A DNA stretch of 64,000 bases from Candidatus Zipacnadia bacterium (GCA_029820565.1 JALGUR010000022.1:17731-81730); one strand, 5' to 3'; numbered from the stretch's first letter, positions 7,656 through 47,823 are shown. Made by a program: numbers and translations. The notes: generated by a model not told the origin, from the letters alone.

Positions 7656-7956
7656 AACCACGATGTGTCACTCACAATTAGTTCGACGAATTACTATATG
7701 TAGAAGTTCTCCTGGGCCAGCAATAATCCTCCTTTGGCATTTGGGCCGGTCTTCCGGGCGGCTGAACTTGCTGAAGTCTACGCTCGACACGGCCCCTGCA
7801 ATGGTCAAGATGGTAAGTCGTGCGGAGGGGCCGGTCGCCGCAGGCCCAGCGAAGCGCAGGCCTGCCAGGCCGGCCCTATTCTTCCAATCTTCACCAAAAG
7901 ACAGCGGCCCCGCCGCAGCGAGGCCGCTGTTACCAATAACCGAGGAGTGGGACAGG

Positions 7957-8880: not shown

Positions 8881-8999
8881 CGCGGCTGTCTCCCTTCAGT
8901 GATGCATTGTAATCTATAGTGTCACGTAAGTTGTTGTGCCACGTTGCTTAGCAGCCGTTGAAGTATAGTATAACATATTATTGGTATATTTTTCAAGTG

Positions 9000-9917: not shown

Positions 9918-10214
9918 TGCTCTTGCCTCACTTTGTGATGCGTCGATAAACATCGTTAGGTAGTTCCTTCGCAATACGCAGAATCCTTCTTACTGTACTG
10001 TTGAGTACCCGTGATAAACACCTGCCGCAAGCACTTATCCATATTCCGTATGTGGGACGAGGCGGAGCCTGATGTAACTCACCCAAGACTTGACAGGACA
10101 AGAGACACAACTTATAATTCAAATAACTTGGGCTCCCGTCATACAGAACTTCTGTGTTTGACGATTGTCAATAATAGTAAGTAGCGCCTACCAGACAGGT
10201 GAGGTGTTAATACT

Positions 10215-11225: not shown

Positions 11226-11337
11226 ATTGGCGAGATAGATTAGCAAGCAGGAGAAACCGAATAGACGACGAAACTATAACTGTGATAGTGACAAACTCTT
11301 TGCCTGATTCTACCAATGTGTTCTCAGAAAGGAGATT

Positions 11338-12285: not shown

Positions 12286-12407
12286 ATAGCACGAACCGTC
12301 CCTACCCAAGCAGCATAGCGATACACAACAGTAGAAGAGGATATACTGGCCGGCCGCCGAACAGCCACATATCGGCGTGTCGGCCTTGGCGTTGTAGGCC
12401 TGCTACT

Positions 12408-13101
12408 ATGATTCCTCTACGCGACAACATTCGCTCGGTTCATTTTCCGGTGGTGAATATCGCCATTATTGCCACTTGTGGGGCGATATTTGTCTACCAA
12501 CTTACCGCCCCGGCGGCAATAACCCAATATGCCTTCCGCCCTGTCTATCTGGCCTCGCCAAGTGAATTTCGTGAGGTCGGTTACCAACTGGCACTGGGGA
12601 GTTTGATCCTGTCAATATTCATGCATGGCGGTTTGTTACATATTGGCGGAAATATGCTGTTTCTGTGGGTGTTCGGCGATAATGTGGAAGACAGAATGGG
12701 GCATTTGCGCTACCTGGTCTTCTATCTGCTGTGCGGAGTGCTGGCCAGCCTGGCCCATACTTTCATCACTCTGGCCAGTACGCCCATTACTGGAGGAGAG
12801 GCACTGACAGTTCCTATGGTGGGAGCAAGTGGGGCTATTGCCGGTGTGTTAGGGGCGTACTATTCACTATTCAAGGGAGCCTATGTTCGTGCTCTGGTGC
12901 CCCTCTTCTTCATATTTACTACTGTAGACTTACCGGCGGGACTATTTATCATAATCTGGTTCATTATGCAGTTGTTCTCCGGTGTAACATCGCTGGGAGT
13001 GGGTACGGGGATAGCCTTCTGGGCCCACATTCCTGGTCAAGATTTTCGTTCGTCGGCGGCGTCGGCCCCGGCCCCGGGTATTAGACCTGCGCATAGACTA
13101 A
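12408..13101 (+). pseudogene. rhomboid intramembrane serine protease, frameshifted just after the catalytic His
   Basis: MIPLRD start, FMHGGLLHIGGNMLFLWVFGDNVE, VGASGAIAG and FWAHI motifs; the expected GGF..G after AHI is missing and a plausible C-terminus (LVKIFVRRRRRPRPRVLDLRID*) lies in another frame at 13033-13101. Confidence 0.7.
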
Positions 13102-13994
13102 TGTTCATTAGGGCGGGGCGCGAATACTCGTTGTAGGTAGGTATGCCCAATCAGCAGCACAGCGCGCAGCCATACTCCTATCGAGATAAGCCAACGCGTG
13201 GCGAAGCAGCGGGCTTGGTGCTTGCAGTAAAGCCGGTACATACTGCAGTGAGAATTGATTATGGTGGGGATGACCGCTTTATCAGAGCTGCGGCCTACGG
13301 CGTGAATAATCTCGGGCTGGGGAGTGTAGAGCACCTGCCATCCAGCCTTGTGAGCGCGCCAGCAGTAGTCAACGTCCTCCGAACCCCAAAAGAATTGCTC
13401 ATCCAACAAGCCTATCTGTTCTATTAGTTCTCGGCGCAATAGCATACAGGCCCCGGAGACCCAATCAACTTTGCGCACCTCGTTGTGATCCCAATCAGAC
13501 ATTAAATAGTCGGCGACACTGGCGGCGCGGGGCATAACCCGGCCAAAGAACGTATTACGAAAAATAGCGGCAGTAATTGTGGGAAAGTGGCGGCACGAGT
13601 ACTGGAGGCGGCCGTCGGGATAAAGTAACTTAGGGCCGATAATGCCGGCCTCGGGGTGCTGGTCGGCGAAGTTGACCATTTGTTGTAGCGCTTCCGGCGG
13701 CACAAGGGTGTCGGGATTGAGTAGCAGAATATAGCGGCCAGTAGCCTGCTCAATTCCCTGATTGCAGCCGGCGGCAAAGCCGCGGTTGTCCTCGTTTTCA
13801 ATGACACGCACCTGAGGATAGCGCTGAGCAGTCGCCAGGGCGGTATCGTCAGCCGAAGCATTATCTACGACAATGACCTCAACGGACAGGTCACCGGCAC
13901 CCGAGTAAATGGAGTCCAGACACGCCAGCAGATCATCCCGAACATTCCAACTGACAATACATATGCTCAACTCAAGCGGTTGAGTTTGATTCAC
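13098..13994 (-). CDS. glycosyltransferase family 2
   Basis: LSICIVSWN, VVDNASAD, NRGFAAGCNQG, LLNPD, WVSGACML and EDVDYC motifs; GTG start at 13994 rather than 14159. Confidence 0.9.
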   Translation of the reverse strand: MNQTQPLELSICIVSWNVRDDLLACLDSIYSGAGDLSVEVIVVDNASADDTALATAQRYPQVRVIENEDNRGFAAGCNQGIEQATGRYILLLNPDTLVPPEALQQMVNFADQHPEAGIIGPKLLYPDGRLQYSCRHFPTITAAIFRNTFFGRVMPRAASVADYLMSDWDHNEVRKVDWVSGACMLLRRELIEQIGLLDEQFFWGSEDVDYCWRAHKAGWQVLYTPQPEIIHAVGRSSDKAVIPTIINSHCSMYRLYCKHQARCFATRWLISIGVWLRAVLLIGHTYLQRVFAPRPNEH

Positions 13995-14163
13995 CGGGGC
14001 TCTCCTGGGGCTCTTCGGCTTCTTCAATGAGCATAATGGGGATGCCGTCTCGTATCGGGTAACGCTTGCCGCAGCCGGTACAGACGATTTTGTCGTCTCG
14101 TAGTTCCACCGGCGCTTTGCAGTCTGGACAGGCCAATATCTCCAAAAGGCTTTCATCAATCAT
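13972..14163 (-). CDS. Trm112 family small Zn-ribbon protein
   Basis: LLEILACPDCK ... CTGCGKRYPIRDGIPIML; GGGAGA RBS. Confidence 0.9.
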   Translation of the reverse strand: MIDESLLEILACPDCKAPVELRDDKIVCTGCGKRYPIRDGIPIMLIEEAEEPQESPGESNSTA

Positions 14164-14183
14164 ACGATCATCTCCCTAAACAC

Positions 14184-14311
14184 GTAGGCGGGGTTCTCTC
14201 CTTCGGCAGGCTCAGGACGGTGAGCTTGCCGAACCGCAACCCCGCATTTGGCCGTGAGCTGCACAGGTTGAGACTTCGGCGACCTCAGCCGAGCCGAACC
14301 TGCGCTACGCG
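14184..14311. repeat. composite REP-like palindromic element (copy 1)
   Basis: 14184-14245 is the exact reverse complement of 28098-28159; 14297-14311 matches 28063-28077 in reverse. Confidence 0.9.
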
Positions 14312-14313
14312 AC

Positions 14314-17300
14314 TTACTCGGCGACCTGATTAGATTTACTTAACCCCAAGCGGACGGCTACCTCCTCAAAAACGCTGTATGCTACCGGCACTACTAATAG
14401 GGTCAAGAAAGTAGAGCTAATCAGACCACCGACGGCAGTTAGCGCCAGAGGCTGCCACATCTCGGAGCCTTCGCGCATCGCCAAAGCCATAGGAATCATT
14501 GCAAAGCCGGTGGTAAAAGCGGTCATTAGAATTGGGCGCAGCCTAATCCGCCCGCCTTCAATAATCGCTTCCCGTGTCGGCATACCGCGTTGGCGGAGCA
14601 GATTGATCATTTGTACCAATAGAATTGAGTTACTGACCACAATGCCGGTGAGCAACAATATGCCCAAGAAGACCATGAGGCTGATGACGGTGCCGGTCAA
14701 TAGCAGGAGAATGCTAACTCCAATTATTTCCAGAGGAATGGCCAACATAATAGTCAAAGGGTGCACCAGGGACTCAAACTGGGAGGCTAAAATCATATAA
14801 ATGAGCAGGATGCCCATAATCAGCGCAACAAACATCCCGGCAAAGGCTTCGCGGCGGTCTTCCTCCGCGCCCGCGAATTCATAGCTGTAACTGCTGGGCC
14901 AGTTGTGGCTAATCGGCTTTATGCGGGCGGCTACATCCTTGAGAATATCGGTCAAGGCACGGTCGGGTGACTTACCGGCGGTAACTCTAACTACGCGCTG
15001 CCGTTCGTCTCGGTGAATTTGGCTCGGACCAGCGGCCGGCCTAATGTCAGCAATCTCGGTCAAGGGTATTACCTGGCCGCTATATGGTGATACGATGGTA
15101 GCATCTTTTACGGTCTCAATCCAGTCGCGGTCTGCCTCAGCCGCTCGGACTTTGATGTCATACTCTTCCCCGGCCTCGCGGTACTTGGTTAACTGCTGGG
15201 TCCCCCGAACCAGAGTCTGGAGGGTAGCGGCGACCTGACCGGCAGTTATTCCTAAAGCGCCCGCCTTTTGTCTATCAATGAATACCTGATACTCAGGCTT
15301 GCCGGGCCGCCAATTCAGGTCCAAGTCATGCAATCCGGGCACATCCGCAATTCCATCCATAACCTCATTGCCCAGGCGGCTGAGCACAGGTAGTTCATCG
15401 CCGCTGATAACCACCTCAATATCGGCCCCGCCCATAGCGCCGGGGCCCATTTCGGTAAAGCGAGCGGTAACTCCCGGTACGCGGTCAAACTTCTCACGCA
15501 GCTCAGCCTCAATTTCACCGGCGTGACGCTCGCGCTGACTGCGGGGTGTCAATTTGCCAAACAGAGATGCTGTATTTGTCCCCCCTCCTCCCATACCCAT
15601 CATCATGGCTTCAGCGCCCAGCTCGCCGCCGGTGGCCCCGACCAACTGAAACTCGGGAGTCTGCTGCATTATTCGCTCCAACTCCTGGGTCATCTGGTCA
15701 GTATATTGGATTGATGAGCCGATAGGGGTTTCCACATTAATGAATACCTGATTTTCTTCCATTGTCGGGAAGAATTCCAGGCCCACTAAGCCCATCAGCA
15801 TAAGACTGATAATGAAGGTGCCGCCGGCAATAGCAGTGGTCATAGCCCGGTGGCTCAGGGCCCAGGTTATAGCTCGCAGGTACCACTGGGTCAACCATCC
15901 AAAACCTTGTTGAAATTTGCCCAGTCCCTTCTCCACGAGGCGAGGTAGTATGCCGAAAAGCCTCACCCCTCGTCCCGCTCCGTCGCCATAGCGGCTTGGG
16001 CGCGTCGGTGACGCTCCCGGCGGGAGAGGAAAACCAGATGAATCAAGGGGCTGGGCAGCAGCCATAAACCGAGAGCAAAGCAAGGGAACCAGGGTCAAGG
16101 CAACCAGCAGTGAGGCGGCCAGGCCAAACATTACTACCCAGGCCATAGACGCGAATATCTCGCCCACCAATCCCCCGATAAGCAGTAGCGGGAAGAAAAC
16201 GGCGAAGGTGGCCAGGGTTGTGGCCAGGCACGCTGAGGCCACTTCGCCAGTGCCCGAGAGGGCTGCCTTGGTTACCGTCTCGCCCTGCTCGGTTATATGG
16301 CGATAGATATTCTCCAATACAACAATGGAGTCATCTACCATCCGCCCAATGGCCAGCACCAGGCCGCCCATAGTTATTATATTGAGAGTCATATCGGCGT
16401 AGTACATTAGGACAAAGGTGGCAATTAACGACATCGGTATGGAGACAGCTATCACTATAGTATTGCGGATTGCAGCCAGGAAGAAGAAGATGACAATTAC
16501 TGCCAAGATACCCCCTTCAAGGGCTACCTCATACAAGTTATTCAGCGATTGCTTGATATACTCGGCCTGGTCAAAAGTAGCCTGTAACTCCACGCCCGCC
16601 GGTAGCCTCTCCGGCAGTGTCCCGACAGCCTGATGGACGGCATTGGATACTTCTACTGTGTTAGCTACCGACTCTTTGGCTATCTCTAAGGCCACGCAGG
16701 GCTCGCCATTGAGTCGAGCAAAGCTCCGAATCTCCTTATGACTATCTTTGACCTGGGCCACATCGCGCAGGCGAATGGGAGTGCCGTTATGAGCCGCTAT
16801 GGCGATGTCGGCAATCTCGTCCACGCTCTGGAATTGTCCGATAGTGCGAATTGTGTACTCTTTGGTCCCTTCCGTGGTATATCCCGCCGGAAGATTGAGG
16901 TTCTCACTGCGCAAGATGTTTTCAATCTGTCCCACGGACAGGCCGTAAGCGTCCAGGCGGGCGCGGTCTACCTGGACCAGGATTTCCCGCTGCAAACCGC
17001 CGTAGATGGTGGCCGCCGCTACTCCTTCCAGTTTTTCTAACTCCGGCTTGATGACATCTTCAGTGATTTTTCGCAATCGTTCCATATCCTCCATGCCAGT
17101 GACTTCCATCTCCATCACTGGCATCATTGTGGAGGGGTCCATTTTACCGATGAGGGGCCGGTGGGCGTCTCCCGGTAACCAGTTAATGACCGGGTCCACC
17201 TTTTCGCGAGTGTCAAAGGCCGCATCATCCATATCGGTGCCCCACTCAAACTCTAATATGACCACGGAGAGGCCGTCTTGGGAGATCGACCGAATGCTTT

Positions 17301-17532
17301 TGAGGTCCTCAACGATGGCCGCGGCTTCCTCAATGGGCTTGGTGACAAACTCCTCTACCTCCTGGGGCCCCGCTCCCGGATAGCGGGTCATAACGGTGAG
17401 GATTGGGAAAGTAATATCGGGCAGCAGGTCTATCTTCAGATTGGAAAGCCCCAGCAGTCCCAGCAGCACCACTGCCAGGGCCGCCATATAGGTAGTGACG
17501 GACCGATTTAGTGAAAAACGCGCCGGATTCAC
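14314..17532 (-). CDS. RND efflux permease (AcrB/AcrD/AcrF family)
   Basis: 1072 aa; YPGAGPQEVE, GRMVDDSIVVLENI, GIVVSNSILL and RLRPILMT motifs. Confidence 0.95.
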   Translation of the reverse strand: MNPARFSLNRSVTTYMAALAVVLLGLLGLSNLKIDLLPDITFPILTVMTRYPGAGPQEVEEFVTKPIEEAAAIVEDLKSIRSISQDGLSVVILEFEWGTDMDDAAFDTREKVDPVINWLPGDAHRPLIGKMDPSTMMPVMEMEVTGMEDMERLRKITEDVIKPELEKLEGVAAATIYGGLQREILVQVDRARLDAYGLSVGQIENILRSENLNLPAGYTTEGTKEYTIRTIGQFQSVDEIADIAIAAHNGTPIRLRDVAQVKDSHKEIRSFARLNGEPCVALEIAKESVANTVEVSNAVHQAVGTLPERLPAGVELQATFDQAEYIKQSLNNLYEVALEGGILAVIVIFFFLAAIRNTIVIAVSIPMSLIATFVLMYYADMTLNIITMGGLVLAIGRMVDDSIVVLENIYRHITEQGETVTKAALSGTGEVASACLATTLATFAVFFPLLLIGGLVGEIFASMAWVVMFGLAASLLVALTLVPLLCSRFMAAAQPLDSSGFPLPPGASPTRPSRYGDGAGRGVRLFGILPRLVEKGLGKFQQGFGWLTQWYLRAITWALSHRAMTTAIAGGTFIISLMLMGLVGLEFFPTMEENQVFINVETPIGSSIQYTDQMTQELERIMQQTPEFQLVGATGGELGAEAMMMGMGGGGTNTASLFGKLTPRSQRERHAGEIEAELREKFDRVPGVTARFTEMGPGAMGGADIEVVISGDELPVLSRLGNEVMDGIADVPGLHDLDLNWRPGKPEYQVFIDRQKAGALGITAGQVAATLQTLVRGTQQLTKYREAGEEYDIKVRAAEADRDWIETVKDATIVSPYSGQVIPLTEIADIRPAAGPSQIHRDERQRVVRVTAGKSPDRALTDILKDVAARIKPISHNWPSSYSYEFAGAEEDRREAFAGMFVALIMGILLIYMILASQFESLVHPLTIMLAIPLEIIGVSILLLLTGTVISLMVFLGILLLTGIVVSNSILLVQMINLLRQRGMPTREAIIEGGRIRLRPILMTAFTTGFAMIPMALAMREGSEMWQPLALTAVGGLISSTFLTLLVVPVAYSVFEEVAVRLGLSKSNQVAE

Positions 17533-19178
17533 GGGGTGGCGCCCACCTCCTTATCGCGGACTTCAATAGACTGTCCGGCCTCAAGTCGCTCCTGGCCCCG
17601 AACAACTATGTGGTCGCCCTCCTGTAGCCCGCTAAGAATAGCCACGCGGTCGGCATCCTGCAGCCCTGTCTGCACTTCTTTCTGTATCGCCTGGCCGCCT
17701 TTCGCGATATATACGAGACTCTTGCCTTCTCGCTGTATGACAGCATCGCGGGGAACTACCAGCACATTGCTCTGCTGCTCGGCCACAACTTGTACGCGGG
17801 CGAACATCCCCGGGGTCAATTTGCCTTCTTCATTCGGCACCCATATCTTAACATCAAAGGCCCGCGACTCGGGGTCAGCAGCAGGCAGGATTTCGGTAAC
17901 GGTGCCCACAAACGTGCCCTGCGTCGCGTCCACGACTACCATGGGGGTCTGGCCCTTATGTATCTGTGCGATATTGCCCTCTCCAACCTGTGCCCGCACA
18001 TATACCTGGCGATTGTTCACTAACCTGAACATAGGCAAGCCGGGAGAAGCTGACTCGCCCGGGTCCACGCTACGCTGAACAATTGTACCGGAAGCGGGCG
18101 CGCGAATGTGGGCATAACCAATCTGGGTCTGCAGATAATTGACATTGGCTTTAGCCTGGGAGAGAGCAGCCTTAGCCGCCTGCACGTCCTCCTCGCTCAT
18201 CTGGTCGCGGGCAGCAGCAGCCTGGGCCATCTCCAAGCCAGCGCGGGCCTGGTCAACCTGCTTCTGAGCGGCTTCTACCTCACGCTGGCGGATCTGATTT
18301 TGAGCCTGGTTAGCCTGGGCCAGAGATAGGACTGCTTTAGCCTGCTGGACCTGGGCCTCAGCGATCTGTATCTCTTCGGTACGAGCGCCTTCTTTGATCA
18401 AATCGAGCCGTTGGACCACTGTGTTGTAGCCGGCCAGTGCAATGTCATATTGCAATTTGGCCGCGTCATATTGCTGCTGGGCGATAGCGCCTTGTCCCAG
18501 GAGTTGTTGGGCACGGTCCAAGTTTTTCTGGGCGGTATCCCGGCTGGCTTGCGCCTGACGGACCGCCTCTTGGGCCTGCTGCCTTTCTTGCTTACGAGCG
18601 CCCTGGCGCAGTATATCTAACCGAGCCTGGGCCTGCTTCAGGGCTTCTTCCGCTTGTTGGATAGATGTAGTTGTTTGCGCTGTGGTAATCTCGGCACCGG
18701 TTTGAGCCTGGCGCAGCCGGGCTTGGGCCGCCTGCAACTGTGCCTGGGCACTGGTAATGGAAGTGCTGGTTTGTGCCTCTTGCAAACCGACACCGGTTTG
18801 GGCTTGCTTCAGGCGGGCCTCAGCCGCCGCCACTCCAGCCCGGGCCTGGCGTAGTTGGGAGAGCAAGTCTTTATGTTCCAGCAGGGCCAGTAACTGCCCA
18901 GTTCTGACCACAGCCCCTTCGTCCACATAGATTTTGGTCACCTTGCCCGGGACCTTAGGCACGACACTAATGTCCACCTTAGCCTCTACAGTGCCCGTGA
19001 CAGTGAAAGAGCGCTGAATATCGCCTATCTCCACCGGCTGAGTCTGTACGGGCAGAGCCGGTTGTTCCTCGGCTGCTTGCTGGGCAGCGACTCTTTGCTG
19101 CTGGAGGGATCGAGTTAGCACTAAGCCTCCCAACACCAAAATGACCAGAATAATGGCAGCAATAAGTTTGCGATTCAT
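17529..19178 (-). CDS. RND periplasmic adaptor (membrane fusion protein) with a long coiled coil
   Basis: N-terminal TM, VPGKVTKIYVDEG, IRAPASG and LTPGMFARV motifs. Confidence 0.93.
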   Translation of the reverse strand: MNRKLIAAIILVILVLGGLVLTRSLQQQRVAAQQAAEEQPALPVQTQPVEIGDIQRSFTVTGTVEAKVDISVVPKVPGKVTKIYVDEGAVVRTGQLLALLEHKDLLSQLRQARAGVAAAEARLKQAQTGVGLQEAQTSTSITSAQAQLQAAQARLRQAQTGAEITTAQTTTSIQQAEEALKQAQARLDILRQGARKQERQQAQEAVRQAQASRDTAQKNLDRAQQLLGQGAIAQQQYDAAKLQYDIALAGYNTVVQRLDLIKEGARTEEIQIAEAQVQQAKAVLSLAQANQAQNQIRQREVEAAQKQVDQARAGLEMAQAAAARDQMSEEDVQAAKAALSQAKANVNYLQTQIGYAHIRAPASGTIVQRSVDPGESASPGLPMFRLVNNRQVYVRAQVGEGNIAQIHKGQTPMVVVDATQGTFVGTVTEILPAADPESRAFDVKIWVPNEEGKLTPGMFARVQVVAEQQSNVLVVPRDAVIQREGKSLVYIAKGGQAIQKEVQTGLQDADRVAILSGLQEGDHIVVRGQERLEAGQSIEVRDKEVGATP

Positions 19179-19184
19179 TCTACG

Positions 19185-20570
19185 TCACTCCTGTTCACTG
19201 GCGACGGGCAGATTATCAGCAGAGACATTGATGGCGCTGAGCAATTCAGCCTCTGCTATCTGATACCCATACAATGCATTGACGTGATTGGTGCGCGCCG
19301 CGGTTAGTGCCACGCGGGCATCAGTAACTTCTACTGCCGGACCAACCCCGGCGTTATAACGGACTTCGGCCAGCCGAGAGGCTTCCTCGGCCTGTTGAAC
19401 CGTCTTCTCTGTGGCGTGCAGTTGAGATTTGGCTTCCTCTAATTTCAAGTATGCCTGCCAGACCTCGGCGGACACCTGTTCTTTGAGTTGCTCAACCGAC
19501 AGCAGAGCCTGCTGAAGTTGATAGTGAGCCTGACGCTCCTTGGCCCGCGATGCCCCGCCGTCAAAGATCGGTTTACTGAGACTGACGGTAACATTCCAGC
19601 CATAGTCAGTGCCGCCAAAGCCCCCGGGACGCTGGCGATTGTAGCCGCCAACCAAGTCCAAATTGACGCCACGCTGGGCGCGCCCCAGTCGCAGCGAAAC
19701 CTGGGCCATATTTACCGCTTTCTGTGCGATTGTTATCTCCTCGCGGCGCTGTTGAGCCAGATTAAGACAAGCCACAGGGGCTATGTCGGCTATCTGTGGC
19801 TCCGGAGGCGCTACCAGTTGCACCGGAGTAGTCATATCCACCGCCAGAGTTCTCTTCAACATAGTTTTAGCCAAGTCCACTCCATTTTGGGCAGCAATCA
19901 AATCGTGCTCAGCATTGGCAATATCTACTTCAGCCCGTAGAACATCAAACTGGGGAGCTGCTCCAGCTTCAAAACGGGTTTGAGATATCCGCCAGTGTTC
20001 TCGGGCACTATCCACAGTTTGTTCAGCGACGTCAATTAATTGTTGAGCTTGGATGACTCCTAAAAAGCCTTTAGTAGTGGCCAGTTTTATCTGACGGCGG
20101 ACTATGACGGCTTGAAGTTCAGCGACGTCAACATTCAATCTGCTCAACTGCACCAGGGCCTGGTTGCGACCGGCCGAGTAGAGGGACTTGTACAGGGAAG
20201 CCCCATACTGCCAGTTTTTATCGGGACCAACTTCCACCGACTGGGAACCCTGCGGGGTAGGTATCTCAATGCTGGATGAGGGGCCCAGGCGGGAGTAGCG
20301 GCCTTCCAAGCCAAGTTGACAGCGGTTAGCCGCCTTGGCCTCAATGATACCTGCTTGCCGCTCGTAGATGATCTCGTCAGCGATGCGAACTTGATAATTA
20401 TTTGCAAGAGCCAACGCTACTGCCTCGGGAAGAGTGAGCCGTAGGACTTCGGGGGCAGCCTCTGCCCTATACAACCCCCCGGACAGAAGGATGGCGCCTA
20501 ATATTAGTGCCATAAAGGCAAAAAGGCCGCGCCCTGACCCTTGCGGTAACAGCAGTTGCGCAGTTTTCAC
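19185..20570 (-). CDS. TolC family outer membrane efflux protein
   Basis: LTLPEAVALALANN, RFEAGAAPQFDVLRAE, PIFDGG and RYNAGVG motifs. Confidence 0.93.
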   Translation of the reverse strand: MKTAQLLLPQGSGRGLFAFMALILGAILLSGGLYRAEAAPEVLRLTLPEAVALALANNYQVRIADEIIYERQAGIIEAKAANRCQLGLEGRYSRLGPSSSIEIPTPQGSQSVEVGPDKNWQYGASLYKSLYSAGRNQALVQLSRLNVDVAELQAVIVRRQIKLATTKGFLGVIQAQQLIDVAEQTVDSAREHWRISQTRFEAGAAPQFDVLRAEVDIANAEHDLIAAQNGVDLAKTMLKRTLAVDMTTPVQLVAPPEPQIADIAPVACLNLAQQRREEITIAQKAVNMAQVSLRLGRAQRGVNLDLVGGYNRQRPGGFGGTDYGWNVTVSLSKPIFDGGASRAKERQAHYQLQQALLSVEQLKEQVSAEVWQAYLKLEEAKSQLHATEKTVQQAEEASRLAEVRYNAGVGPAVEVTDARVALTAARTNHVNALYGYQIAEAELLSAINVSADNLPVASEQE

Positions 20571-39682: not shown

Positions 39683-41077
39683 ATTATTAAATGTGGAATT
39701 CGCCTTCTATTAGCCTCGGCGATTGTGGGGGCCCTGGTCGTTGCCAACATCGCCACCGCCCAAGCGGATGCTTTGCAAGACGCTCTGAACAAGCAACGAG
39801 ATTTCAATGCGGTGCAGGTCATATATCGCCACGGTGTCCCGCACACGGACAGGCGGGGCCGGCTCATGACGGCATATGATCCCGACCGGTCCTTTTTCCA
39901 GATCGCCGTGTGGGGTACGCCCTTGGACAAAGTGTACGGACATGAATACGACCTCACCGTCCTTAAGGAGGCTGGTTTGAACACGGTCTGGCCCTGGCCT
40001 ATGTACTCGCCGGAATCGGCTCTTGAGTTGGCTCAGAAAGCCGAACTCCAGGTAGTTCTAATGAACAAACTCAATGAAGAAGAACTGGAACAGGTAAAAG
40101 ATCATCCCCATCTGCTCGGGAATATGTGGATGGATGAACCGATCGGCAGACTGGGGTCCGTGGATATGGACGAACTGTTCGGCGAATTCCTAGCCTATAA
40201 GGAGACAGCGAATCGGATAGCGCCGGACATACCGGTATTCATCAATGACGCACCCTGGATAATGGCACCGGCAACTGCCTGGTGGGTGAAGTGGAATACC
40301 GCGGGCGATGTTTCCTGCCACGACAACTACCCGGTAATGCACCGCCGCGGGCGTGTCAAGTCTATAGGAGCTGAGCCCAACGGCGTCCCTCAGTCCGTGT
40401 CGCTGGCTGTAGCTGCTAATCAGGAGCAAAAACCAGTCTGGCTAATTGTCGGCGCTTTCGATACTCCCAGTTCCTGGGGCGCTGCCTTCCCATTCCGTTA
40501 CCCGACCCCAGAGCAATTGTGTGCTTGCGTATATGCCGGCATAATTCATGGCGCTACGGGCATTATCTACTTCACATGGGATACTTACATTTCCCGTGAT
40601 GGAGCTGTCATCGGAATGTCGCCGGACCCACAGGTCGCCTATGTCCCCAATCCTCGGCAAGAGAATTATCCGCATCCGACGCCCGCCACGCCACTGCAAA
40701 TGGTCAAGGGCCGGTCCCTGTGGGAGACCGCCACGCAAATCAACAAGGAACTGAGGGACCTAACCCCTGCCATTCTGTCACCAACCGTAGGAGACGAGGT
40801 CAAGTATACGGTAAACGTGGAGGGAGAGTCGCCCACGGAGATGCCCATACGGTGCCTGCTCAAGCCTCATCCAGATGGCGGGTACGTGCTGCTGACGGTC
40901 AATATTGACGACGCGGTGCTAAACGTCACCTACAGTTTCCCCCAGCCGCTGGCGCAAGTGCACGTGCTTTACGAGAACAGACAGCCGGAAAAGCTTGAAC
41001 CCGACTCCAGCAGCTTTACTCTGATGTACGATCCGTTTGCCACCCACGTCGTTCGTATTCATTTGGGCGAATCTTAG
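39683..41077 (+). CDS. secreted glycoside hydrolase-like TIM-barrel protein, apparent ATT start
   Basis: AGLNTV, MDEP, HDNYP and IIHGATGIIYF motifs; the signal peptide extends upstream of the track's GTG (39725) to ATT codons behind AAGGAG. Confidence 0.65.
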   Translation: MIKCGIRLLLASAIVGALVVANIATAQADALQDALNKQRDFNAVQVIYRHGVPHTDRRGRLMTAYDPDRSFFQIAVWGTPLDKVYGHEYDLTVLKEAGLNTVWPWPMYSPESALELAQKAELQVVLMNKLNEEELEQVKDHPHLLGNMWMDEPIGRLGSVDMDELFGEFLAYKETANRIAPDIPVFINDAPWIMAPATAWWVKWNTAGDVSCHDNYPVMHRRGRVKSIGAEPNGVPQSVSLAVAANQEQKPVWLIVGAFDTPSSWGAAFPFRYPTPEQLCACVYAGIIHGATGIIYFTWDTYISRDGAVIGMSPDPQVAYVPNPRQENYPHPTPATPLQMVKGRSLWETATQINKELRDLTPAILSPTVGDEVKYTVNVEGESPTEMPIRCLLKPHPDGGYVLLTVNIDDAVLNVTYSFPQPLAQVHVLYENRQPEKLEPDSSSFTLMYDPFATHVVRIHLGES

Positions 41078-42157: not shown

Positions 42158-42946
42158 CTACGTATTCGCAAACTTCTCGGGCAGGGCGCTCTTGACTCCC
42201 TGCACCATTCCCACCGCCGCTTCCCAGTAGGTATCGATATCCTGGCTCAGCGGTATGAAAGTGGAGCCCATCCTGATCTGCTCTATGGCCGCCTCCACGC
42301 TCATCACATGGCGCCCGTAGGGAATGTTGGCGTGGCGACATGCTTCAAATACTCGCCCGATGGCCGCCGTCACCTCGGGGTGATCGCTGTTTCCCCGGTG
42401 CCCTATGGAGGCCGCCAGATCATCGGGGCCAATCAGCACCGCCTCAATGCCCTCAATCTCCAGTATCTGCTCAATGTTTTCTACGGCCTTGCCCCGCTCG
42501 ATCTGGGCAATAACCATAATCATGTCGTTGGCTCCGGCCGTGTACTCGTCGAATTCCATATCCCAGCGATTGGCCCGCGCTGAGCAGATACCCCGCACTC
42601 CCTCAGGACCAAAGCGTGTAGCCGCCACTGCTTCCCTAAACTGCTCGGGCCTCTCCAGCATCGGTATCACCACACCCTTCACCCCCGTGTCCAGAGTTCT
42701 TTTCATGATGCCCCGGTCAGGTGTGGCCACGCGCGCCAACGGTACGGTGCCCGTGCCGGCGCAGTCTATCCCCTGGCAGATGTGCACCAGGTCATCGTAC
42801 GAAATCGTGGAGTGTTCACAGTCCGCCACGATCCAGTCATACCCCACCGAAGCCATCAGCTCCGCCAGAGAACTGTTGTTCAGCGTCAACCAGCCTCCGA
42901 TAGTGGGCATGCCCGCCTTCAGCTTTTCGCGAAGGGGATTAATCAT
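42158..42946 (-). CDS. HpcH/HpaI aldolase family protein
   Basis: DWIVADCEHS, LDTG, AQIE and IGPDDL motifs. Confidence 0.92.
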   Translation of the reverse strand: MINPLREKLKAGMPTIGGWLTLNNSSLAELMASVGYDWIVADCEHSTISYDDLVHICQGIDCAGTGTVPLARVATPDRGIMKRTLDTGVKGVVIPMLERPEQFREAVAATRFGPEGVRGICSARANRWDMEFDEYTAGANDMIMVIAQIERGKAVENIEQILEIEGIEAVLIGPDDLAASIGHRGNSDHPEVTAAIGRVFEACRHANIPYGRHVMSVEAAIEQIRMGSTFIPLSQDIDTYWEAAVGMVQGVKSALPEKFANT

Positions 42947-43206: not shown

Positions 43207-44535
43207 TCAGGAAATGCTGATGCGGATCAGTTCGTAGTGTTGGTTGATAACATCCAACTGCGCGGTTAGAGTTTTAATGTCCTGCTGGATCTGAGAGGCC
43301 GAGCGCTGGTTCATCAAGTCGCATACTATCGCTAATCCTCTTGTAGACTGAGGGATGTCCTTGTCCAGCGTGACACTAACTTGGACTGTTCGTCGGCCGG
43401 GAACCGCCGCCAGTTCATAGCCAAGTTGAATGGGCACCGAGTCGCCATTGCTGCCCTCATAAACAATTACCGGAAGGGCCCTAACAGTCACCACCCCTGC
43501 GTTGTGAAGTGATACCGCCACCCGGGGAGGAGGCCCGGGTAGAAATCTCACCTGCTTGATGGATAGTTCAGCCTCTACGCGGTTCACCTTCAAAGCGGAT
43601 AGCGGGTCAACCAGACCCCAGCCCCGCTTGAGTGACCAAGTCTGATCACCAGCAGTTGCCGTCAGGACGGTCCGCACTTGGCCGGCATCCCATTCGGGAT
43701 GCTGCGAGAACAGTAGAGCAGCAATTCCCGAAATGTGGGCAATTGCCGGACAGCCGCCGCTGATCTCTTTGTAGCCATGATCGCTTGAAATACAGGAAAG
43801 TACGCCATAGGCGCGGGCACCCGGCTGCGCACTGCTGCCCCAGGCTCCGGGAGGATAGTCGCGGAAGCCGCCCGGGGCCATGATCTGAGTCACCGGGCCA
43901 TAGTCCGCAAAATCAGACGCATTGCCTTGTTTGTCACAGGGCGCTACGTTGAAGACCCCGGGATACACCGAAGGATATCCCAAGCAGCATTGAGCACCGT
44001 TGCCTCCGGTAGCCGACACTATCAGTACGCCATAATCGGCGGCATGCTGACAGGCGTTGAACAGGTCATCGGCGGACGGAATGGTCCACGAACCACGAGG
44101 GGCATCTCGCCCTCGGGCAATGTCCTTCTGGTAGCCAGCGTCGCTCAGGTTTATTACGCGGGCACTTTCCTCCACCGCGATGCGGATACCACAGACCAGG
44201 TGTTGGTCATCATAAGAGTTACAGCGTATAGGCAAAATGCGACACTCTGGGGCAAGCCCGCAGATGCCCATGCCATTATCAATCTGGGCCGCGATGATGC
44301 CGCACATCTGGGTGCCGTGGTCAGCGAATTTCGGCTCTGACCACTGGTTCCACAGGTCAATTGGCTTCAGCATAACGCGTTGGAGGTCTGGGTGTGTCAG
44401 GTGCACACCCCGCTCAATAACTGCTACGCTGACCTCTGCCCTGCCCCGCTGGATTGCCCACACTTCAGGAAATCCTAACATGTGTAGGTTCCACTGCTGC
44501 TCGAAAAGCGGGGCATTGGGCCAGAAACTCGCCAT
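43207..44535 (-). CDS. S8 subtilase-fold protein with an atypical Glu-His-Cys catalytic site and a CARDB-like C-terminal domain
   Basis: PNAPLFEQQW, VAVIERG, HPDL, HGTQMCGIIAA, VINLS, ATGGN, IMAPGG, SGGCPAIAHISGIAALL and GWGLVD motifs. Confidence 0.85.
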   Translation of the reverse strand: MASFWPNAPLFEQQWNLHMLGFPEVWAIQRGRAEVSVAVIERGVHLTHPDLQRVMLKPIDLWNQWSEPKFADHGTQMCGIIAAQIDNGMGICGLAPECRILPIRCNSYDDQHLVCGIRIAVEESARVINLSDAGYQKDIARGRDAPRGSWTIPSADDLFNACQHAADYGVLIVSATGGNGAQCCLGYPSVYPGVFNVAPCDKQGNASDFADYGPVTQIMAPGGFRDYPPGAWGSSAQPGARAYGVLSCISSDHGYKEISGGCPAIAHISGIAALLFSQHPEWDAGQVRTVLTATAGDQTWSLKRGWGLVDPLSALKVNRVEAELSIKQVRFLPGPPPRVAVSLHNAGVVTVRALPVIVYEGSNGDSVPIQLGYELAAVPGRRTVQVSVTLDKDIPQSTRGLAIVCDLMNQRSASQIQQDIKTLTAQLDVINQHYELIRISIS

Positions 44536-44617
44536 AAGTTACCCCTTTGCGCCCTGCCGTAGAGACTATGTCCTCGGCTCTTTACCCACTTCCACACTCA
44601 GCACGACAGTCCTGCCT

Positions 44618-45820
44618 CTACAACATACAGCACTGCTTGTATTTGCGGCCGCTGCCGCAGGGGCAGGGATCATTGCGGTCGGGCGGACCGGCTGTGATAT
44701 GGAGTTGGTCAAGGGGCCGGCGTTCAACCGCTACTTGATGGGCCAGTTGCGCCATACGGCTCTTGCTATAGGCAAATAATGCCCGATAAGCGCGACAGAG
44801 ATAGGTCGGTTGGGCGGGATTGTCAGCAAAGAGAGTGCGATACTTCACACAACCTCCGTGACATATATCCAGCCATCCGCATTCCTGACACTGCTGACTA
44901 TACTGGCTTTTGCGGGCTGCAAATTCTTGGCGGTGGGTAGAAGATAAGATCTCGGATAAGGGCTGCTCGGTAATATTGCCCAGACGCCACTGCGGGTCAC
45001 AGAAAAAGTCGCAAGCGTAAATGTCGCCGTTGTACTCGCAAACAACGTAGTCCGAACAAGAGTCTTTGAATTTGCACGAAGGGATAGTTTCTTCGGCATA
45101 GGTGATGAGAAGTTCGTCAAATAACCGGACATACAGCGAACCAGGCTCAGCGACCCACAGGTCAAACATTTCACACTGGAAATGACCATACTGTCGGGCG
45201 GTTATGGAAAAATCAGCAATCGCCGAGCCGTCCGGGGTAGTCTCCACGCAGGGAATGAATTGCAGATAAGTCAAATCATTGTGCAGGAAGAACTCAGCCA
45301 GCGCCTGGGGATAATCTACATTAGCCTCAGTAAGCAGGACCAAGATATTGAATTCTACCTGGTATTGGCGAAGAGCCTGGATCTCCGCCATCACTTGGCG
45401 GTGCGAGCCCGAGCCGTTGGCGAATGTCCGATAACGGTTATGCATCGGAGCCGGCCCATCCAGGCTGACCCCCACCAGGAACCGATTCTCCGCCAGGAAA
45501 GCAGCCCAGTCCTCATCAATGATGATAGCGTTGGTCTGGAGACTGTTGGTAATCTGCTGGCCTGGTGCTGCCATCTTTTGCTGGAATTCTATTGCCCGCC
45601 GGTAGAAGTCCAGCCCAGCCAGAGTAGGTTCCCCGCCCTGCCAGCAGAATGAGACCGGCTCACCAAAGTCTATCGTCTGGCCTATCAACTCCTCCAGCAC
45701 AGCCTGTGACATTCGGTGGCGCGCAATTTCGGGGTACAGGACAGCCTTGGGGCGATAAAAGCAATACTCGCAGGCCAGGTTACAATCGGCGGAGACTGGC
45801 TTGACCAGGATCTGAACCAT
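44618..45820 (-). CDS. anaerobic sulfatase maturase-type radical SAM/SPASM protein with C-terminal SEC-C motif
   Basis: VKPVSADCNLACEYCFY, WQGGEPTL, QTN, GVSLDGP, SPASM cysteines and RNDPCPCGSGRKYKQCC. Confidence 0.92.
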   Translation of the reverse strand: MVQILVKPVSADCNLACEYCFYRPKAVLYPEIARHRMSQAVLEELIGQTIDFGEPVSFCWQGGEPTLAGLDFYRRAIEFQQKMAAPGQQITNSLQTNAIIIDEDWAAFLAENRFLVGVSLDGPAPMHNRYRTFANGSGSHRQVMAEIQALRQYQVEFNILVLLTEANVDYPQALAEFFLHNDLTYLQFIPCVETTPDGSAIADFSITARQYGHFQCEMFDLWVAEPGSLYVRLFDELLITYAEETIPSCKFKDSCSDYVVCEYNGDIYACDFFCDPQWRLGNITEQPLSEILSSTHRQEFAARKSQYSQQCQECGWLDICHGGCVKYRTLFADNPAQPTYLCRAYRALFAYSKSRMAQLAHQVAVERRPLDQLHITAGPPDRNDPCPCGSGRKYKQCCML

Positions 45821-45934: not shown

Positions 45935-46028
45935 AGGCACAACCGATGAGCAAATAGACAATCGGTGCTTTCTTAAGTTCTTTAGCCAACTGCCCCACAT
46001 GAAGCTGCTCATATTGTCTGTTGGACAT
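45935..46028 (-). pseudogene. N-terminal remnant of a creatininase-family gene
   Basis: MSNRQYEQLHVGQLAKELKKAPIVYLLIG resembles the creatininase start that normally continues into xxEWHG; similarity stops there. Confidence 0.5.
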
Positions 46029-47739
46029 TACTGTTTCTCCGAGAATGCGACAATATGTTTTACCATCTGGGCACGGATATCTTGAATGGATTCTGTCTCG
46101 CTGATCAACTGATCCCGTTCCTTCAGGTCGGCCAGCCAATTCTCAGCCTGTTTTATGGCCACGGCATCCGGATTGGTCTTCTTGGCGGCTTCCAGACAGT
46201 CAAGTAGAGTAGATAAGTAGCGCAAATCATCCTTGGCCTCACGCATGGTCTCCCACTTGATAGTCGGCACCGGCTCGCCCTTGCTCACCGGCACCGTCCA
46301 AGCCAGAGACCGCGCCTCGAGGAAGTCCCAACTGTTGGCGGCGAAGCGCCATTGATAGGCGAAATCACAAGAGCCATCAAAGCCTCGACGATGACCCGCT
46401 TGCCGGCCTGGTGCCACTTGGCAACCTCTGTGCGGGCCTCTTCGTCTCCATAGGCCTCGCCGAACAGGTTGGGCAGGTCTATCCAATCCAGCAGGTACTC
46501 GCTTGCCGGAACGATGACGCTCAACGCGGTCCAGGCCTTAACCCCGAGGCTGTGGCGCTGCTCGCAGTCCTGCCGAACACGGTCCAGGTCGGCCATCTTG
46601 GGCTCGTCCTGCAGCATGATGTAGATGTCGTCGTAGCCGGCGGCGCGCAAGTAGGCCACAGACTCCTCATTGGCGTAAGCCTGTACTACACTGACATAAG
46701 TGTGGCCGTTGCCGAAGCCGGTCTGCTTCATGAGGCGCACGGCTCGTTCTGGTGGGCAATACCAGCCCACATTACCAACGCCGTGCGCGGCCATATCCCG
46801 GATATCGGCAATTATCTGTTCATCGGTTTTGTAAAACGGGTGCACAAACGTACGACCACCATTCATCCAATGCTGATAGACTGAGGGGCTCTCATTTCTG
46901 ACCCGCTCCCTCAGTTCCGGTTTCTCTTCCCTCAAATAAGCGTCTTTGTAACCACCAGCATAGTACAGCCAACAAAACCACCGCGACTCCGAGAGACGGA
47001 AGGGCAAAACTTGCACTTTCAAAGGCAGGGAAATGCTGGAGACATTGGCAGCCTTGATGGTCACCGTCCCCTCATATATGCCTGGGACGGCGTCTTCGGG
47101 CACGTGCACTGTCAGCCAGAACTGCTTGAGCTCTTGGGCAACCAAATCAACCGGCAGCAAGGCTGAAGAATCGTGCATATCATGGCGCGCATACTTCAGG
47201 ACGTTGTAGCCTACGCTGTACCTGCTGCCGAAGTGCACCGAGGTCAGCAGCTCATCGTCACGCAGCAGCAGGAGCGGCACGTACACCCAATTTTTTACCA
47301 AGTCGCCGCCGGTGTGGTCGGGAACAGTGACATACGCCCACTTGACGACCCGAATGTCCACCGTCGAGGAAGGTATGGTGTTGGTGGCGCAGCGCAGTGC
47401 GCTGACCTCCAACGTCACGCCTTGCAGGTCTTTGGTGGGCCAGATAGCCAGGCTGCCTGGCTCGTATTCGCCGGGAGCCGCGAAGATGCACATGTCCCTG
47501 CAAGTTGATTCCTTGGGAGGGGTCACGGCTGGCTGCTCAAGGGTCGGCTGATTCAGACCCCACCACCAGCCGCCCTCCTGCCCATAGTTGTACGGAGCAA
47601 CGCCGAATACCACGATCTGCTCATTTTGCGGTAGCTCCTCCCAGGGCACAGCCGTACTGCGCACCACTTCGGACCTCTGGGCCGGCCCCGGTAGGGCGGT
47701 GATAAGCAATACCATCGCCGCCATAATCCAGGTTATCAT
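46028..47739 (-). pseudogene. large secreted glycoside hydrolase-like (GH123/DUF4091-style) protein, frameshifted near 46385
   Basis: Signal peptide; AAPGEYEPGS, QFWLTVHVPEDA-PG-Y-G and QDEP in frame 1; GFDG..DFAYQ and PTIKWETMREAKDDLRYL in frame 2. Confidence 0.7.
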
Positions 47740-47823
47740 TTTCCCGCACTCGTCCTTTGCTAAGCGCTCTCGCATTTAAGGCACCTCTATATGGTAGCAT
47801 GCGGGAATTGGTGGGGTAGACTG

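What the first reader, a model, noticed from the sequence alone, without database searches (positions are those of the whole stretch)
43207..44535. Natural thiol-subtilisin with a subtiligase-like active site (Glu41-His73-Cys262, Ala at the Pro225 position)
Seen: canonical VAVIDSG is VAVIERG (E41), HGT is kept (H73), the oxyanion Asn is kept (ATGGN, N179), and GTSMASPHVAG is GGCPAIAHISG (TGT codon at 43752-43750). Aligned to subtilisin BPN' this is S221C, M222P and P225A. Established: S221C/P225A is the engineered peptide ligase subtiligase, which favours aminolysis over hydrolysis. There is no signal peptide or propeptide: the protein starts at the mature-type PN-PLF-QQW motif. Inference: coordinated triad changes point to a repurposed cytoplasmic enzyme (cysteine protease, acyltransferase, ligase or macrocyclase) rather than decay.
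Basis: partly seen in the sequence, partly recalled or inferred. Interest (0 to 1): 0.85.

Follow-up and report, generated by a model that had tools for sequence, protein, structure and literature searches.

The report
Natural cysteine-nucleophile subtilase (Glu-His-Cys)
This gene encodes a subtilisin-fold enzyme whose catalytic serine and aspartate are replaced by cysteine and glutamate, and it belongs to a small conserved family that appears to be a natural counterpart of laboratory-made thiol-subtilisin.

Summary
ORF 43207-44535(-) encodes a 442-aa Pfam S8 protein with no signal peptide or propeptide. E41, H73, N179 and C262 (TGT 43752-43750) occupy the subtilisin Asp32/His64/Asn155/Ser221 columns.

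It is not decay. All nine aligned relatives (33-45% identical to it) keep E/H/N/C. They form one starred clade, nested in a 16-row clade that holds every Cys-bearing sequence in the tree. Orthologues in Chloroflexota MAGs have dN/dS of 0.06-0.12. None of the 349 Ser-subtilase rows has Cys or Glu at these sites.

Thr220 is lost in all 27 Cys rows, so it is the family-wide companion change. Pro222/Ala225 ("subtiligase-like") is peculiar to this protein. That pair also co-occurs in ordinary Ser subtilases (8 of 8 with Pro222). Most clade members keep Pro225.

The adjacent anaerobic sulfatase-maturase radical-SAM gene is probably incidental. In two same-genus genomes it abuts pyrB directly. Five Chloroflexota genomes with orthologues have no such maturase.

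Best reading: an active cytoplasmic cysteine peptidase on a subtilisin scaffold, working through a thioester acyl-enzyme, substrate unknown (about 0.6). A natural ligase or transpeptidase is not excluded (about 0.15). Six literature searches found no description of a natural Cys subtilase.

The parts
43207..44535 (-). Complete CDS, 442 aa: subtilase-fold protein with a Glu-His-Cys active site (P0001)
   Evidence: ORF and translation. Pfam PF00082 E 1.1e-32, 114 bits, residues 34-307. AlphaFold2 model has pLDDT 90.5 and pTM 0.92.
44542..44546 (-). AGGGG ribosome-binding-like motif 6 nt upstream of the ATG; an in-frame TAA at 44541-44539 closes the frame
   Evidence: Read directly from the sequence.
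43576..44523 (-). Catalytic subtilisin-fold domain (about residues 5-320), starting where mature thermitase starts
   Evidence: Foldseek matches to subtilisin BPN', Carlsberg and thermitase: TM (target-normalised) 0.87-0.91, rmsd 2.1-2.6 A. phmmer alignment to thermitase runs from residue 2 of the mature chain.
44413..44415 (-). Codon of Glu41, in the column of subtilisin Asp32
   Evidence: Alignments A1, A2 and A5. Invariant in the 9-row E-H-C alignment.
44317..44319 (-). Codon of His73, in the column of subtilisin His64
   Evidence: Invariant in A1, A2, A3 and A5.
43999..44001 (-). Codon of Asn179, in the column of the oxyanion-hole Asn155
   Evidence: Invariant in A5. The key 'EHNC' is shared by 21 rows.
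43750..43752 (-). TGT codon of Cys262, in the column of the nucleophile Ser221; motif GGCPAIAH
   Evidence: Sequence read directly. Aligns to Cys221 of the peptiligase structures 7AM3-7AM8.
43213..43566 (-). C-terminal all-beta domain (residues 324-441), specific to the family, Ig/Fn3-like sandwich
   Evidence: Strands in the whole-protein model, pLDDT mostly 92-97. Conserved N345, G347, Q370, D406, S412 and Q415. No Pfam match at E<=5. Only weak, generic beta-sandwich matches by fold (TM 0.31-0.51).

Best explanation
The gene encodes a cytoplasmic member of a small, apparently undescribed clade of subtilisin-fold (S8) enzymes with no propeptide. In this clade the nucleophile Ser221 has become Cys, and in the inner clade Asp32 has also become Glu. 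His64 and the oxyanion-hole Asn155 are kept.

The most likely mechanism is that of a cysteine peptidase. Glu41 orients His73. His73 activates Cys262, or forms an ion pair with it. Cys262 attacks a peptide (or ester) carbonyl whose oxyanion is stabilised by Asn179 and the Cys262 backbone NH. The resulting thioester acyl-enzyme is then resolved by water.

Shown here: the fold, the residue identities and columns, their conservation, purifying selection, and the absence of export and pro-sequences. Inferred: catalytic competence, the thioester chemistry, and that the substrate is a peptide. The substrate cleft is remodelled relative to ordinary subtilases. There is a 4-residue deletion in the 99-104 loop, an insertion of roughly 18-21 residues after the 125-128 strand, and a 20-45 residue insertion after the APG strand. 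This suggests a narrow, specialised substrate rather than bulk proteolysis.

The gene stands alone in G000. It lies in a stretch that is missing at the same site in two same-genus genomes.
For: Fold and family: Pfam S8 at 114 bits. The AF2 model has pLDDT 90.5 and superposes on subtilisins at TM 0.87-0.91.

Conservation: E41, H73, N179 and C262 are among 65 invariant columns in the nine-row E-H-C alignment (33-45% identity to the query). A tenth member, a paralogue in genome G416, has the same E/H/N/C.

Phylogeny: a quick IQ-TREE of 70 rows puts the nine E-H-C rows in one clade (SH-aLRT 96). That clade sits inside a 16-row clade (support 100) holding all Cys rows in the tree.

Selection: dN/dS is 0.06-0.12 in seven orthologue pairs.

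Coupled change: Thr220 is present in 344 of 349 Ser rows and in 0 of 27 Cys rows.

Location: no signal peptide or propeptide across the clade. A reducing cytoplasm suits a thiol nucleophile (established chemistry, recalled).

Precedent: Glu in place of Asp is catalytically competent in S8. The E-H-S subtilase SprP is an active protease (PMC3937732, passages read).

Weak context support for peptide catabolism: in Chloroflexota, M14-like carboxypeptidase-family genes lie 2-5 kb from S8-EHC genes in three contexts. That accounts for 2 of the 3 M14 hits in G416 and 1 of 3 in G418.
Against: No activity has been measured for any member.

Passages of PMC7921005 report that the activity of laboratory thiol-subtilisin is drastically reduced compared with wild-type subtilisin. 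A Cys swap alone therefore does not guarantee a good peptidase.

I could not measure the Cys-His-Glu geometry because model coordinates are not exposed.

Genomic context gives no substrate. The four contexts (G000, L018/L052, L019-L025, G416 paralogue) share no gene immediately adjacent or clearly co-transcribed. G000 has no M14-like gene in the window.

P0049, inside the wider clade, has lost Asn179 and has Gly at the nucleophile column, so some relatives may be degenerate.

The tree used a short search, with the triad columns left in and several long branches.
Confidence: 0.6

Rival explanations
1. It is a natural peptide ligase, transpeptidase or macrocyclase. The thioester acyl-enzyme would be resolved preferentially by an amine rather than by water, as in engineered subtiligase, peptiligase and omniligase.
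For: This protein carries all three engineered ligase substitutions: S221C, M222P and P225A. Its active-site helix matches peptiligase structures better than any natural subtilisin in the PDB. In peptiligase M222P/L217H, Ala225 gives 67% synthesis with a synthesis/hydrolysis ratio of 4.5, against 6% and 0.2 for Pro225 (PMC7921005 Table 1, passages read).
Against: Pro222/Ala225 is not a family trait. Twenty-two of the 27 Cys rows keep Pro225 and one has Gly. The Pro222/Ala225 pair also occurs with Ser in 8 of 8 Pro222 rows. None of the four contexts has a precursor peptide gene, a RiPP tailoring enzyme or a transporter tied to the gene. There is no PatG-like insert between the first two triad residues; the spacing is 32 residues, as in ordinary subtilases (the PatG feature is recalled). 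The PatA/PatG model scores 49 bits against a cut-off of 421.
Confidence: 0.15
2. It is a non-catalytic pseudo-subtilase (a binding or regulatory protein), like the Csp pseudoproteases of Clostridioides difficile. The changed triad would then be tolerated rather than used.
For: S8 pseudoproteases with mutated triads exist (PMC7200643; only the search listing and the start of the abstract were seen). Laboratory thiol-subtilisin has drastically reduced activity (PMC7921005). P0049 in the wider clade has lost Asn179 and the nucleophile.
Against: A dead site would not keep Glu, His, Asn and Cys invariant down to 33-45% identity, together with a correlated loss of Thr220. Purifying selection is strong. 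Both replacements are chemically conservative and keep triad chemistry possible.
Confidence: 0.12
3. It is a thiol acyl-hydrolase or acyl-transferase for a non-protein substrate, for example an amide or ester in an imported glycoconjugate or amino-sugar compound.
For: The substrate-binding loops are heavily remodelled. Neighbourhoods in G000, L018 and the G416 paralogue are rich in glycoside-hydrolase-like, GFO/IDH/MocA, aminotransferase, esterase and solute-binding genes.
Against: Such genes are common in these genomes, and none is consistently adjacent. I know of no S8 member acting on non-peptide substrates in nature (recalled, not searched).
Confidence: 0.1
4. Cys262 is a target of the neighbouring radical-SAM anaerobic sulfatase maturase and is converted to formylglycine. 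This would create a new cofactor on a subtilisin scaffold.
For: The maturase-type gene (413 bits against a TIGR03942 cut-off of 349) ends 82 nt upstream on the same strand. Cys262 is followed by Pro-Ala, loosely like the sulfatase C-x-P/A-x-R motif (motif recalled).
Against: The Arg of the motif is absent; the sequence is C-P-A-I-A. This is the only maturase above the cut-off in a genome with 12 sulfatase-family matches, so it has an ordinary job. In same-genus G001 and G002 the maturase abuts pyrB with no subtilase between them. None of the eight Chloroflexota loci has a homologue within 10 kb. Five of those genomes have no TIGR03942 match at all at E<=0.001.
Confidence: 0.02

Closest known systems
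Classical D-H-S subtilases (subtilisin BPN'/Carlsberg, thermitase; MEROPS S8, clan SB)
   Same: Same fold (TM 0.87-0.91). Same order of catalytic columns, with the His and the oxyanion Asn retained. The N-terminus coincides with the mature thermitase N-terminus.
   Different: The nucleophile is Cys rather than Ser, and the acid is Glu rather than Asp. Thr220 is lost. There is no signal peptide or propeptide. The 99-104 loop is shortened and two insertions are present. A family-specific C-terminal beta-sandwich is added.
E-H-S subtilases (Siezen et al. 2007 subfamily; SprP of Pseudomonas aeruginosa)
   Same: Glu replaces the catalytic Asp, and SprP is an active protease (PMC3937732, passages read).
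   Different: Those enzymes keep Ser, and SprP is secreted with an extra DUF domain. No E-H-S row appeared among the 349 Ser rows nearest to this protein, so its Glu probably arose separately. The Siezen 2007 paper itself was not readable here; its content is recalled and known through citing papers.
Engineered thiol-subtilisin, subtiligase, peptiligase and omniligase
   Same: S221C on a subtilisin scaffold. This protein also has Pro222 and Ala225, and its active-site helix aligns best to 7AM3-7AM8 (PMC7921005).
   Different: This protein is natural. It additionally has D32E and T220G, which are not among the ligase substitutions named in the PMC7921005 passages I read. Most family members keep Pro225. 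No ligase activity has been shown.
Picornain 3C-type cysteine proteases (chymotrypsin fold with a Cys-His-Glu/Asp triad)
   Same: The same evolutionary move on the other classic serine-protease fold: Ser to Cys, often with Glu as the third residue (recalled, not tested here).
   Different: Unrelated fold and origin. Those are viral polyprotein-processing enzymes.
Csp pseudoproteases (CspA/CspC) and other S8 homologues with altered triads
   Same: S8 fold with substituted catalytic residues (PMC7200643; search listing and start of abstract only).
   Different: As I recall, their substitutions destroy triad chemistry (not checked in a call). Here both substitutions preserve it, and all four residues are invariant.
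Secreted D-H-C subtilases in genomes G035 and G039 (same order as the window's genome)
   Same: The GGCMATPH motif, with Cys in the Ser column and Gly at 220. They fall in the same 16-row clade.
   Different: They keep Asp. They carry a signal-peptide-like N-terminus, and G039 has a long C-terminal extension. They are only 33-34% identical to this protein.

Membership tests
Peptidase S8 (Pfam PF00082), by sequence and fold | Profile match above the gathering score, and a subtilisin alpha/beta fold | tested here: met
   114 bits against a cut-off of 21.8, covering residues 34-307. Foldseek TM 0.87-0.91 to subtilisins.
Peptidase S8 as a serine peptidase family | Asp-His-Ser catalytic triad | tested here: not met
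   Glu41, His73 and Cys262 occupy the triad columns.
Peptidase S8 as a serine peptidase family | Oxyanion-hole Asn (Asn155) | tested here: met
   Asn179 is invariant in the clade.
E-H-S subtilase subfamily (Siezen 2007; SprP) | Glu in place of the catalytic Asp, with Ser kept as the nucleophile | tested here: not met
   Glu is present but the nucleophile is Cys. No E-H-S sequence was found among the nearest 349 Ser rows.
Type VII secretion mycosin (TIGR03921) | Score above the curated equivalog cut-off | tested here: not met
   172.4 bits against a cut-off of 278.75.
PatA/PatG cyanobactin protease/macrocyclase (TIGR03895) | Score above the curated cut-off | tested here: not met
   49 bits against a cut-off of 421.
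QhpE subtilisin-like protease paired with a radical-SAM maturase (NF049966) | Score above the cut-off, and a conserved partnership with a radical-SAM/SPASM gene | tested here: not met
   45 bits against a cut-off of 165. The radical-SAM neighbour is not conserved.
Subtiligase-type active site (an engineered design, not a natural family) | S221C together with P225A | tested here: met
   Cys262 and Ala266 align to Cys221 and Ala225 of peptiligase 7AM3. Ala225 is found in only 4 of 27 Cys rows.
Subtiligase-type active site (an engineered design, not a natural family) | Preference for aminolysis over hydrolysis | not testable with these tools
   This needs enzyme assays.
Substrate of an anaerobic sulfatase-maturating enzyme | C/S-x-P/A-x-R motif, and co-occurrence with the maturase | tested here: not met
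   The motif is C-P-A-I-A, with no Arg. Zero of five orthologue-bearing Chloroflexota genomes have a TIGR03942 match.
Anti-phage defence subtilases (PADLOC) | Specific match to a defence-system model and a defence-type neighbourhood | tested here: not met
   Only a generic 'subtilase' model match, at E 3.7e-13 and 48 bits. The neighbours are metabolic genes.

The most novel reading that the evidence does not exclude
Nature has already made a subtiligase. This protein, the one clade member combining Cys221, Pro222 and Ala225 with Glu32 and Gly220, would be a cytoplasmic peptide ligase or transpeptidase that resolves its thioester with an amine. That would make it the first natural thiol-subtilisin ligase and a new scaffold for enzymatic peptide synthesis.
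Probability: 0.13. Interest if true: 0.92.

Novelty: new variant of a known kind. Interest (0 to 1): 0.72.

Why it matters
The subtilisin clan is the textbook example of a purely serine-based protease fold. The chymotrypsin fold, by contrast, has both Ser and Cys members. A 2024 structural survey describes subtilisin-like proteins as using only Ser-His-Asp or Ser-Glu-Asp triads; in the passages I searched it contains no mention of cysteine (PMC11593635).

Thiol-subtilisin has been a laboratory construct for about 60 years and is the basis of commercial peptide ligases. A conserved natural Glu-His-Cys clade would add several things:
- It would show that the nucleophile switch also happened on this fold.
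- It would show which second-site changes nature used: loss of Thr220 and Asp to Glu, rather than Pro225Ala.
- It would give enzymologists a test case for how a triad is re-tuned for a thiol.
- It would offer new starting scaffolds, free of a propeptide, for ligase engineering.

All of this rests on sequence, phylogeny and a predicted fold. No member has been assayed.

Tried and rejected
- **Radical-SAM partnership:** rejected.
- **Shared operon partner:** eight Chloroflexota loci, one metagenome contig and the G416 paralogue were compared. No gene is consistently adjacent. L052 is syntenic with L018 and L019-L025 are close kin, so there are only four independent contexts.
- **HpcH aldolase neighbour:** no homologue within 10 kb of the Chloroflexota orthologues.
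- **Recent transfer by composition:** GC is even at 0.52-0.58 across 36-50 kb. Nothing can be concluded from this.
- **Promoter and terminator scan:** counts were at or below the shuffled expectation.
- **Word-index protein searches:** searches missed the true relatives. The index-free HMMER search found them.
- **The search for related loci with alignment A3:** failed because no stretch was conserved enough. I then used the single protein P0188, and alignment A5 on metagenomes.
- **C-terminal domain:** no Pfam match at E<=5. The fold search gave only generic beta-sandwich matches.
- **PADLOC:** generic subtilase match only.
- **ESM Atlas:** the nearest clusters are generic S8, some with CARDB domains. 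This is a lead only.
- **Sequencing runs:** no RNA holder is listed.
- **Literature:** searches returned no paper describing a natural Cys-nucleophile subtilase. The library lacks most subscription journals, and MEROPS could not be consulted.

Full report
**The observation.** ORF 43207-44535 (minus strand) encodes 442 aa. An in-frame TAA sits two codons before the ATG, and an AGGGG motif lies 6 nt upstream. No N-terminal extension, signal peptide or propeptide is therefore possible. Residue 5 aligns with residue 2 of mature thermitase.

Pfam assigns residues 34-307 to Peptidase_S8 (E 1.1e-32, 114 bits). The Cys codon TGT is at 43752-43750.

I searched the 76-residue active-site segment against 177,635 distinct PDB sequences. 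Five of the six best matches, and six of the best eight, are engineered peptiligase variants (7AM3-7AM8). They align SG(G/T)CPA(I/S)AH and rank ahead of wild-type subtilisin BPN'. This confirms the S221C/M222P/P225A mapping.

**Fold.** An AlphaFold2 model built on a 42-row alignment has mean pLDDT 90.5 and pTM 0.92. The 10-residue blocks holding residues 41, 73, 179 and 262 average 91-98. Foldseek superposes the catalytic domain on subtilisin BPN', Carlsberg and thermitase at target-normalised TM 0.87-0.91 and rmsd 2.1-2.6 A.

Residues 324-441 form an all-beta domain. It has no Pfam match and only generic Ig/Fn3-like fold matches. Coordinates are not exposed. The placement of the triad residues therefore rests on alignment columns and the overall superposition, not on measured distances.

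**Is it decay or a family?** Word-indexed searches found nothing closer than 32% identity, and all those hits had Asp/His/Ser. The index-free HMMER search gave 60,308 hits at E<=0.001, of which the best 150 were listed. It found P0038-P0041 (37-42% identity, 444-468 aa), which align from their first residues.

These four proteins carry Glu, His, Asn and Cys in the four catalytic columns, and so do eight Chloroflexota MAG loci. In a nine-row alignment (33-45% identity to the query), E41, H73, N179 and C262 are among 65 invariant columns. A further paralogue in genome G416 has the same four residues.

A quick IQ-TREE of 70 catalytic domains places the nine E-H-C rows in one clade (SH-aLRT 96). 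That clade sits inside a 16-row clade (support 100) containing:
- every Cys row in the tree;
- three Asp-His-Cys rows (P0042 and two secreted proteins from genomes G035 and G039 of the window's own order);
- one Ser row (P0044);
- one degenerate row (P0049).

Caveats on the tree: it used a short search, it has long branches, and the triad columns were not removed.

Seven orthologue pairs among the Chloroflexota genes give dN/dS of 0.06-0.12. I aligned 386 rows from the four searches, not de-replicated. Of these, 349 have Ser and 27 have Cys; the Cys rows collapse to roughly ten lineages. None of the Ser rows has Glu at the Asp column.

**What goes with the cysteine.** Thr220 is present in 344 of 349 Ser rows and in none of the 27 Cys rows, which have Gly, His or Gln. 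The G416 paralogue has Asn. Loss of Thr220 is therefore the family-wide companion of the Ser-to-Cys change.

Ala225 is found in 4 of the 27 Cys rows: this protein, its twin P0187, P0040 and P0041. Pro222 is found only in this protein and P0187. In ordinary Ser subtilases Pro222 always comes with Ala225 (8 of 8), and Ala225 occurs in 29 of 349. So CPAxA is a natural covarying pair that happens to coincide with engineered ligase mutations.

Those mutations do matter in the engineered enzymes. In peptiligase M222P/L217H, Ala225 gives 67% synthesis and a synthesis/hydrolysis ratio of 4.5, against 6% and 0.2 for Pro225 (PMC7921005, passages and Table 1 read). By analogy only, this protein would be the most ligase-prone member of its clade.

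**The neighbour.** The gene 82 nt upstream on the same strand (44618-45820) is a radical-SAM/SPASM protein with a SEC-C tail. It passes the anaerobic sulfatase maturase model (413 bits against a cut-off of 349).

I tested whether it is a partner, and it does not appear to be:
- It is the only such gene above the cut-off in a genome with 12 sulfatase-family matches.
- In the same-genus genomes G001 and G002 its orthologue (80% and 72% identity) ends about 27 nt from the end of pyrB. The order there is pyrF, pyrB, then the maturase on the opposite strand, with no subtilase or aldolase between.
- None of the eight Chloroflexota loci has a homologue within 10 kb.
- Five of those genomes have no match to the model at all at E<=0.001.

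The subtilase and the HpcH aldolase gene (42158-42946) thus occupy a stretch that is absent at this site in the sister genomes.

**Distribution.** No orthologue was found in 16 same-family genomes; the best non-self hit there is E 1.1e-16. In 400 genomes sampled from the window's phylum, the only hit at E<=1e-30 is the secreted D-H-C form in G035. In the Chloroflexota class of G418, 17 of 98 genomes have the gene at E<=1e-50.

The distribution is patchy and spans at least two phyla, which suggests transfer. GC content gives no sign of a recent event.

**Context elsewhere.** The four independent contexts share no gene immediately adjacent or clearly co-transcribed. One recurring feature is an M14-like carboxypeptidase-family gene 2-5 kb away in three Chloroflexota contexts. 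In G416 (3.0 Mb), two of only three M14 hits lie beside its two S8-EHC paralogues, and those two M14-like proteins are 54% identical. In G418 one of three M14 hits does. G000's single M14 hit is on another contig. This is a lead pointing to peptide catabolism, not a demonstration.

**Mechanism.** I commit to an active cytoplasmic cysteine peptidase (about 0.6). Glu41 orients His73, His73 activates Cys262, and Asn179 stabilises the oxyanion. The thioester acyl-enzyme is hydrolysed.

Glu in place of Asp is known to work in S8, in the E-H-S subfamily. SprP, with predicted E262/H299/S499, is an active protease (PMC3937732, passages read). The same pair of changes defines the 3C-type cysteine proteases on the chymotrypsin fold (recalled).

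The substrate cleft is remodelled. There is a 4-residue deletion in the 99-104 loop, an insertion of roughly 18-21 residues after the 125-128 strand, and a variable insertion of 20-45 residues after the APG strand. From this I infer a narrow substrate range.

The rivals are:
- a natural ligase or transpeptidase (0.15);
- a pseudoenzyme (0.12);
- an acyl-hydrolase for a non-protein substrate (0.10);
- a formylglycine-bearing product of the neighbouring maturase (0.02).

**Novelty.** Six full-text searches returned no paper describing a natural Cys-nucleophile subtilase. [quoted passage not shown] The library omits most subscription journals. Siezen et al. 2007 could not be read and is cited from memory and through citing papers. 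MEROPS could not be consulted.

I rate this a new variant of a known kind: a Glu-His-Cys clade within the subtilase fold. It is real and conserved, but it has not been assayed.

Noticed in passing
window 44618-45820 (-): The anaerobic sulfatase-maturase-type radical-SAM/SPASM protein carries a C-terminal SEC-C zinc-binding motif (Pfam E 7.6e-11). Orthologues in same-genus and same-family genomes align through to residue 398-400, so the tail is conserved there.
   Followed up: partly
window 46028-47775 (-): The GH123-N-like gene looks split. ORFs 46285-47775 and 46028-46486 overlap in different frames, which suggests a frameshift or an assembly error.
   Followed up: no
window 39725-41077 (+): A 450-aa ORF with a weak GH42-like match (E 0.003) lies between pyrF and pyrB in this genome. 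In same-genus G001 and G002, pyrF and pyrB are neighbours with no such ORF between them.
   Followed up: partly
L018 5438-6481; L132 3936-4982; L020 13264-14436: Cytoplasmic M14-like carboxypeptidase-family genes lie 2-5 kb from S8-EHC genes in three Chloroflexota contexts. Two of the three M14 hits in G416 flank its two S8-EHC paralogues. In the alignment, the HxxE-like 'GMHAAE' of the G416 proteins reads 'TMQPAE' in the L020-type protein.
   Followed up: partly
L005 141-1052 (G035) and L018 16998-19073: An AAC(3)-family (Antibiotic_NAT) acetyltransferase-like gene lies directly upstream of the secreted Asp-His-Cys subtilase in G035. An AAC(3)-domain protein lies 5.6 kb from the S8-EHC gene in L018. 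None is present in the window or in L019-L025.
   Followed up: partly
G000:C137, about 6500-19300: Three radical-SAM/SPASM-like ORFs lie within 13 kb on another contig of the same genome (weak TIGR03942 matches of 55-60 bits). This may be a peptide-maturation cluster.
   Followed up: no
G000:C25 38315-42041 and many genomes of the same order: ORFs of about 1100-1300 aa match P0001 only weakly, mostly over its first ~50 residues and in some genomes also around residues 70-135. They often occur in tandem and recur across the order.
   Followed up: no
G416:C2:1916698-1918026 (L132 7975-9375): One Chloroflexota genome carries two S8-EHC paralogues that are well diverged (60% and 42% identical to the L020 protein). 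The stop of the second overlaps the start of a GH38/GH57-N-like ORF by 4 nt.
   Followed up: partly
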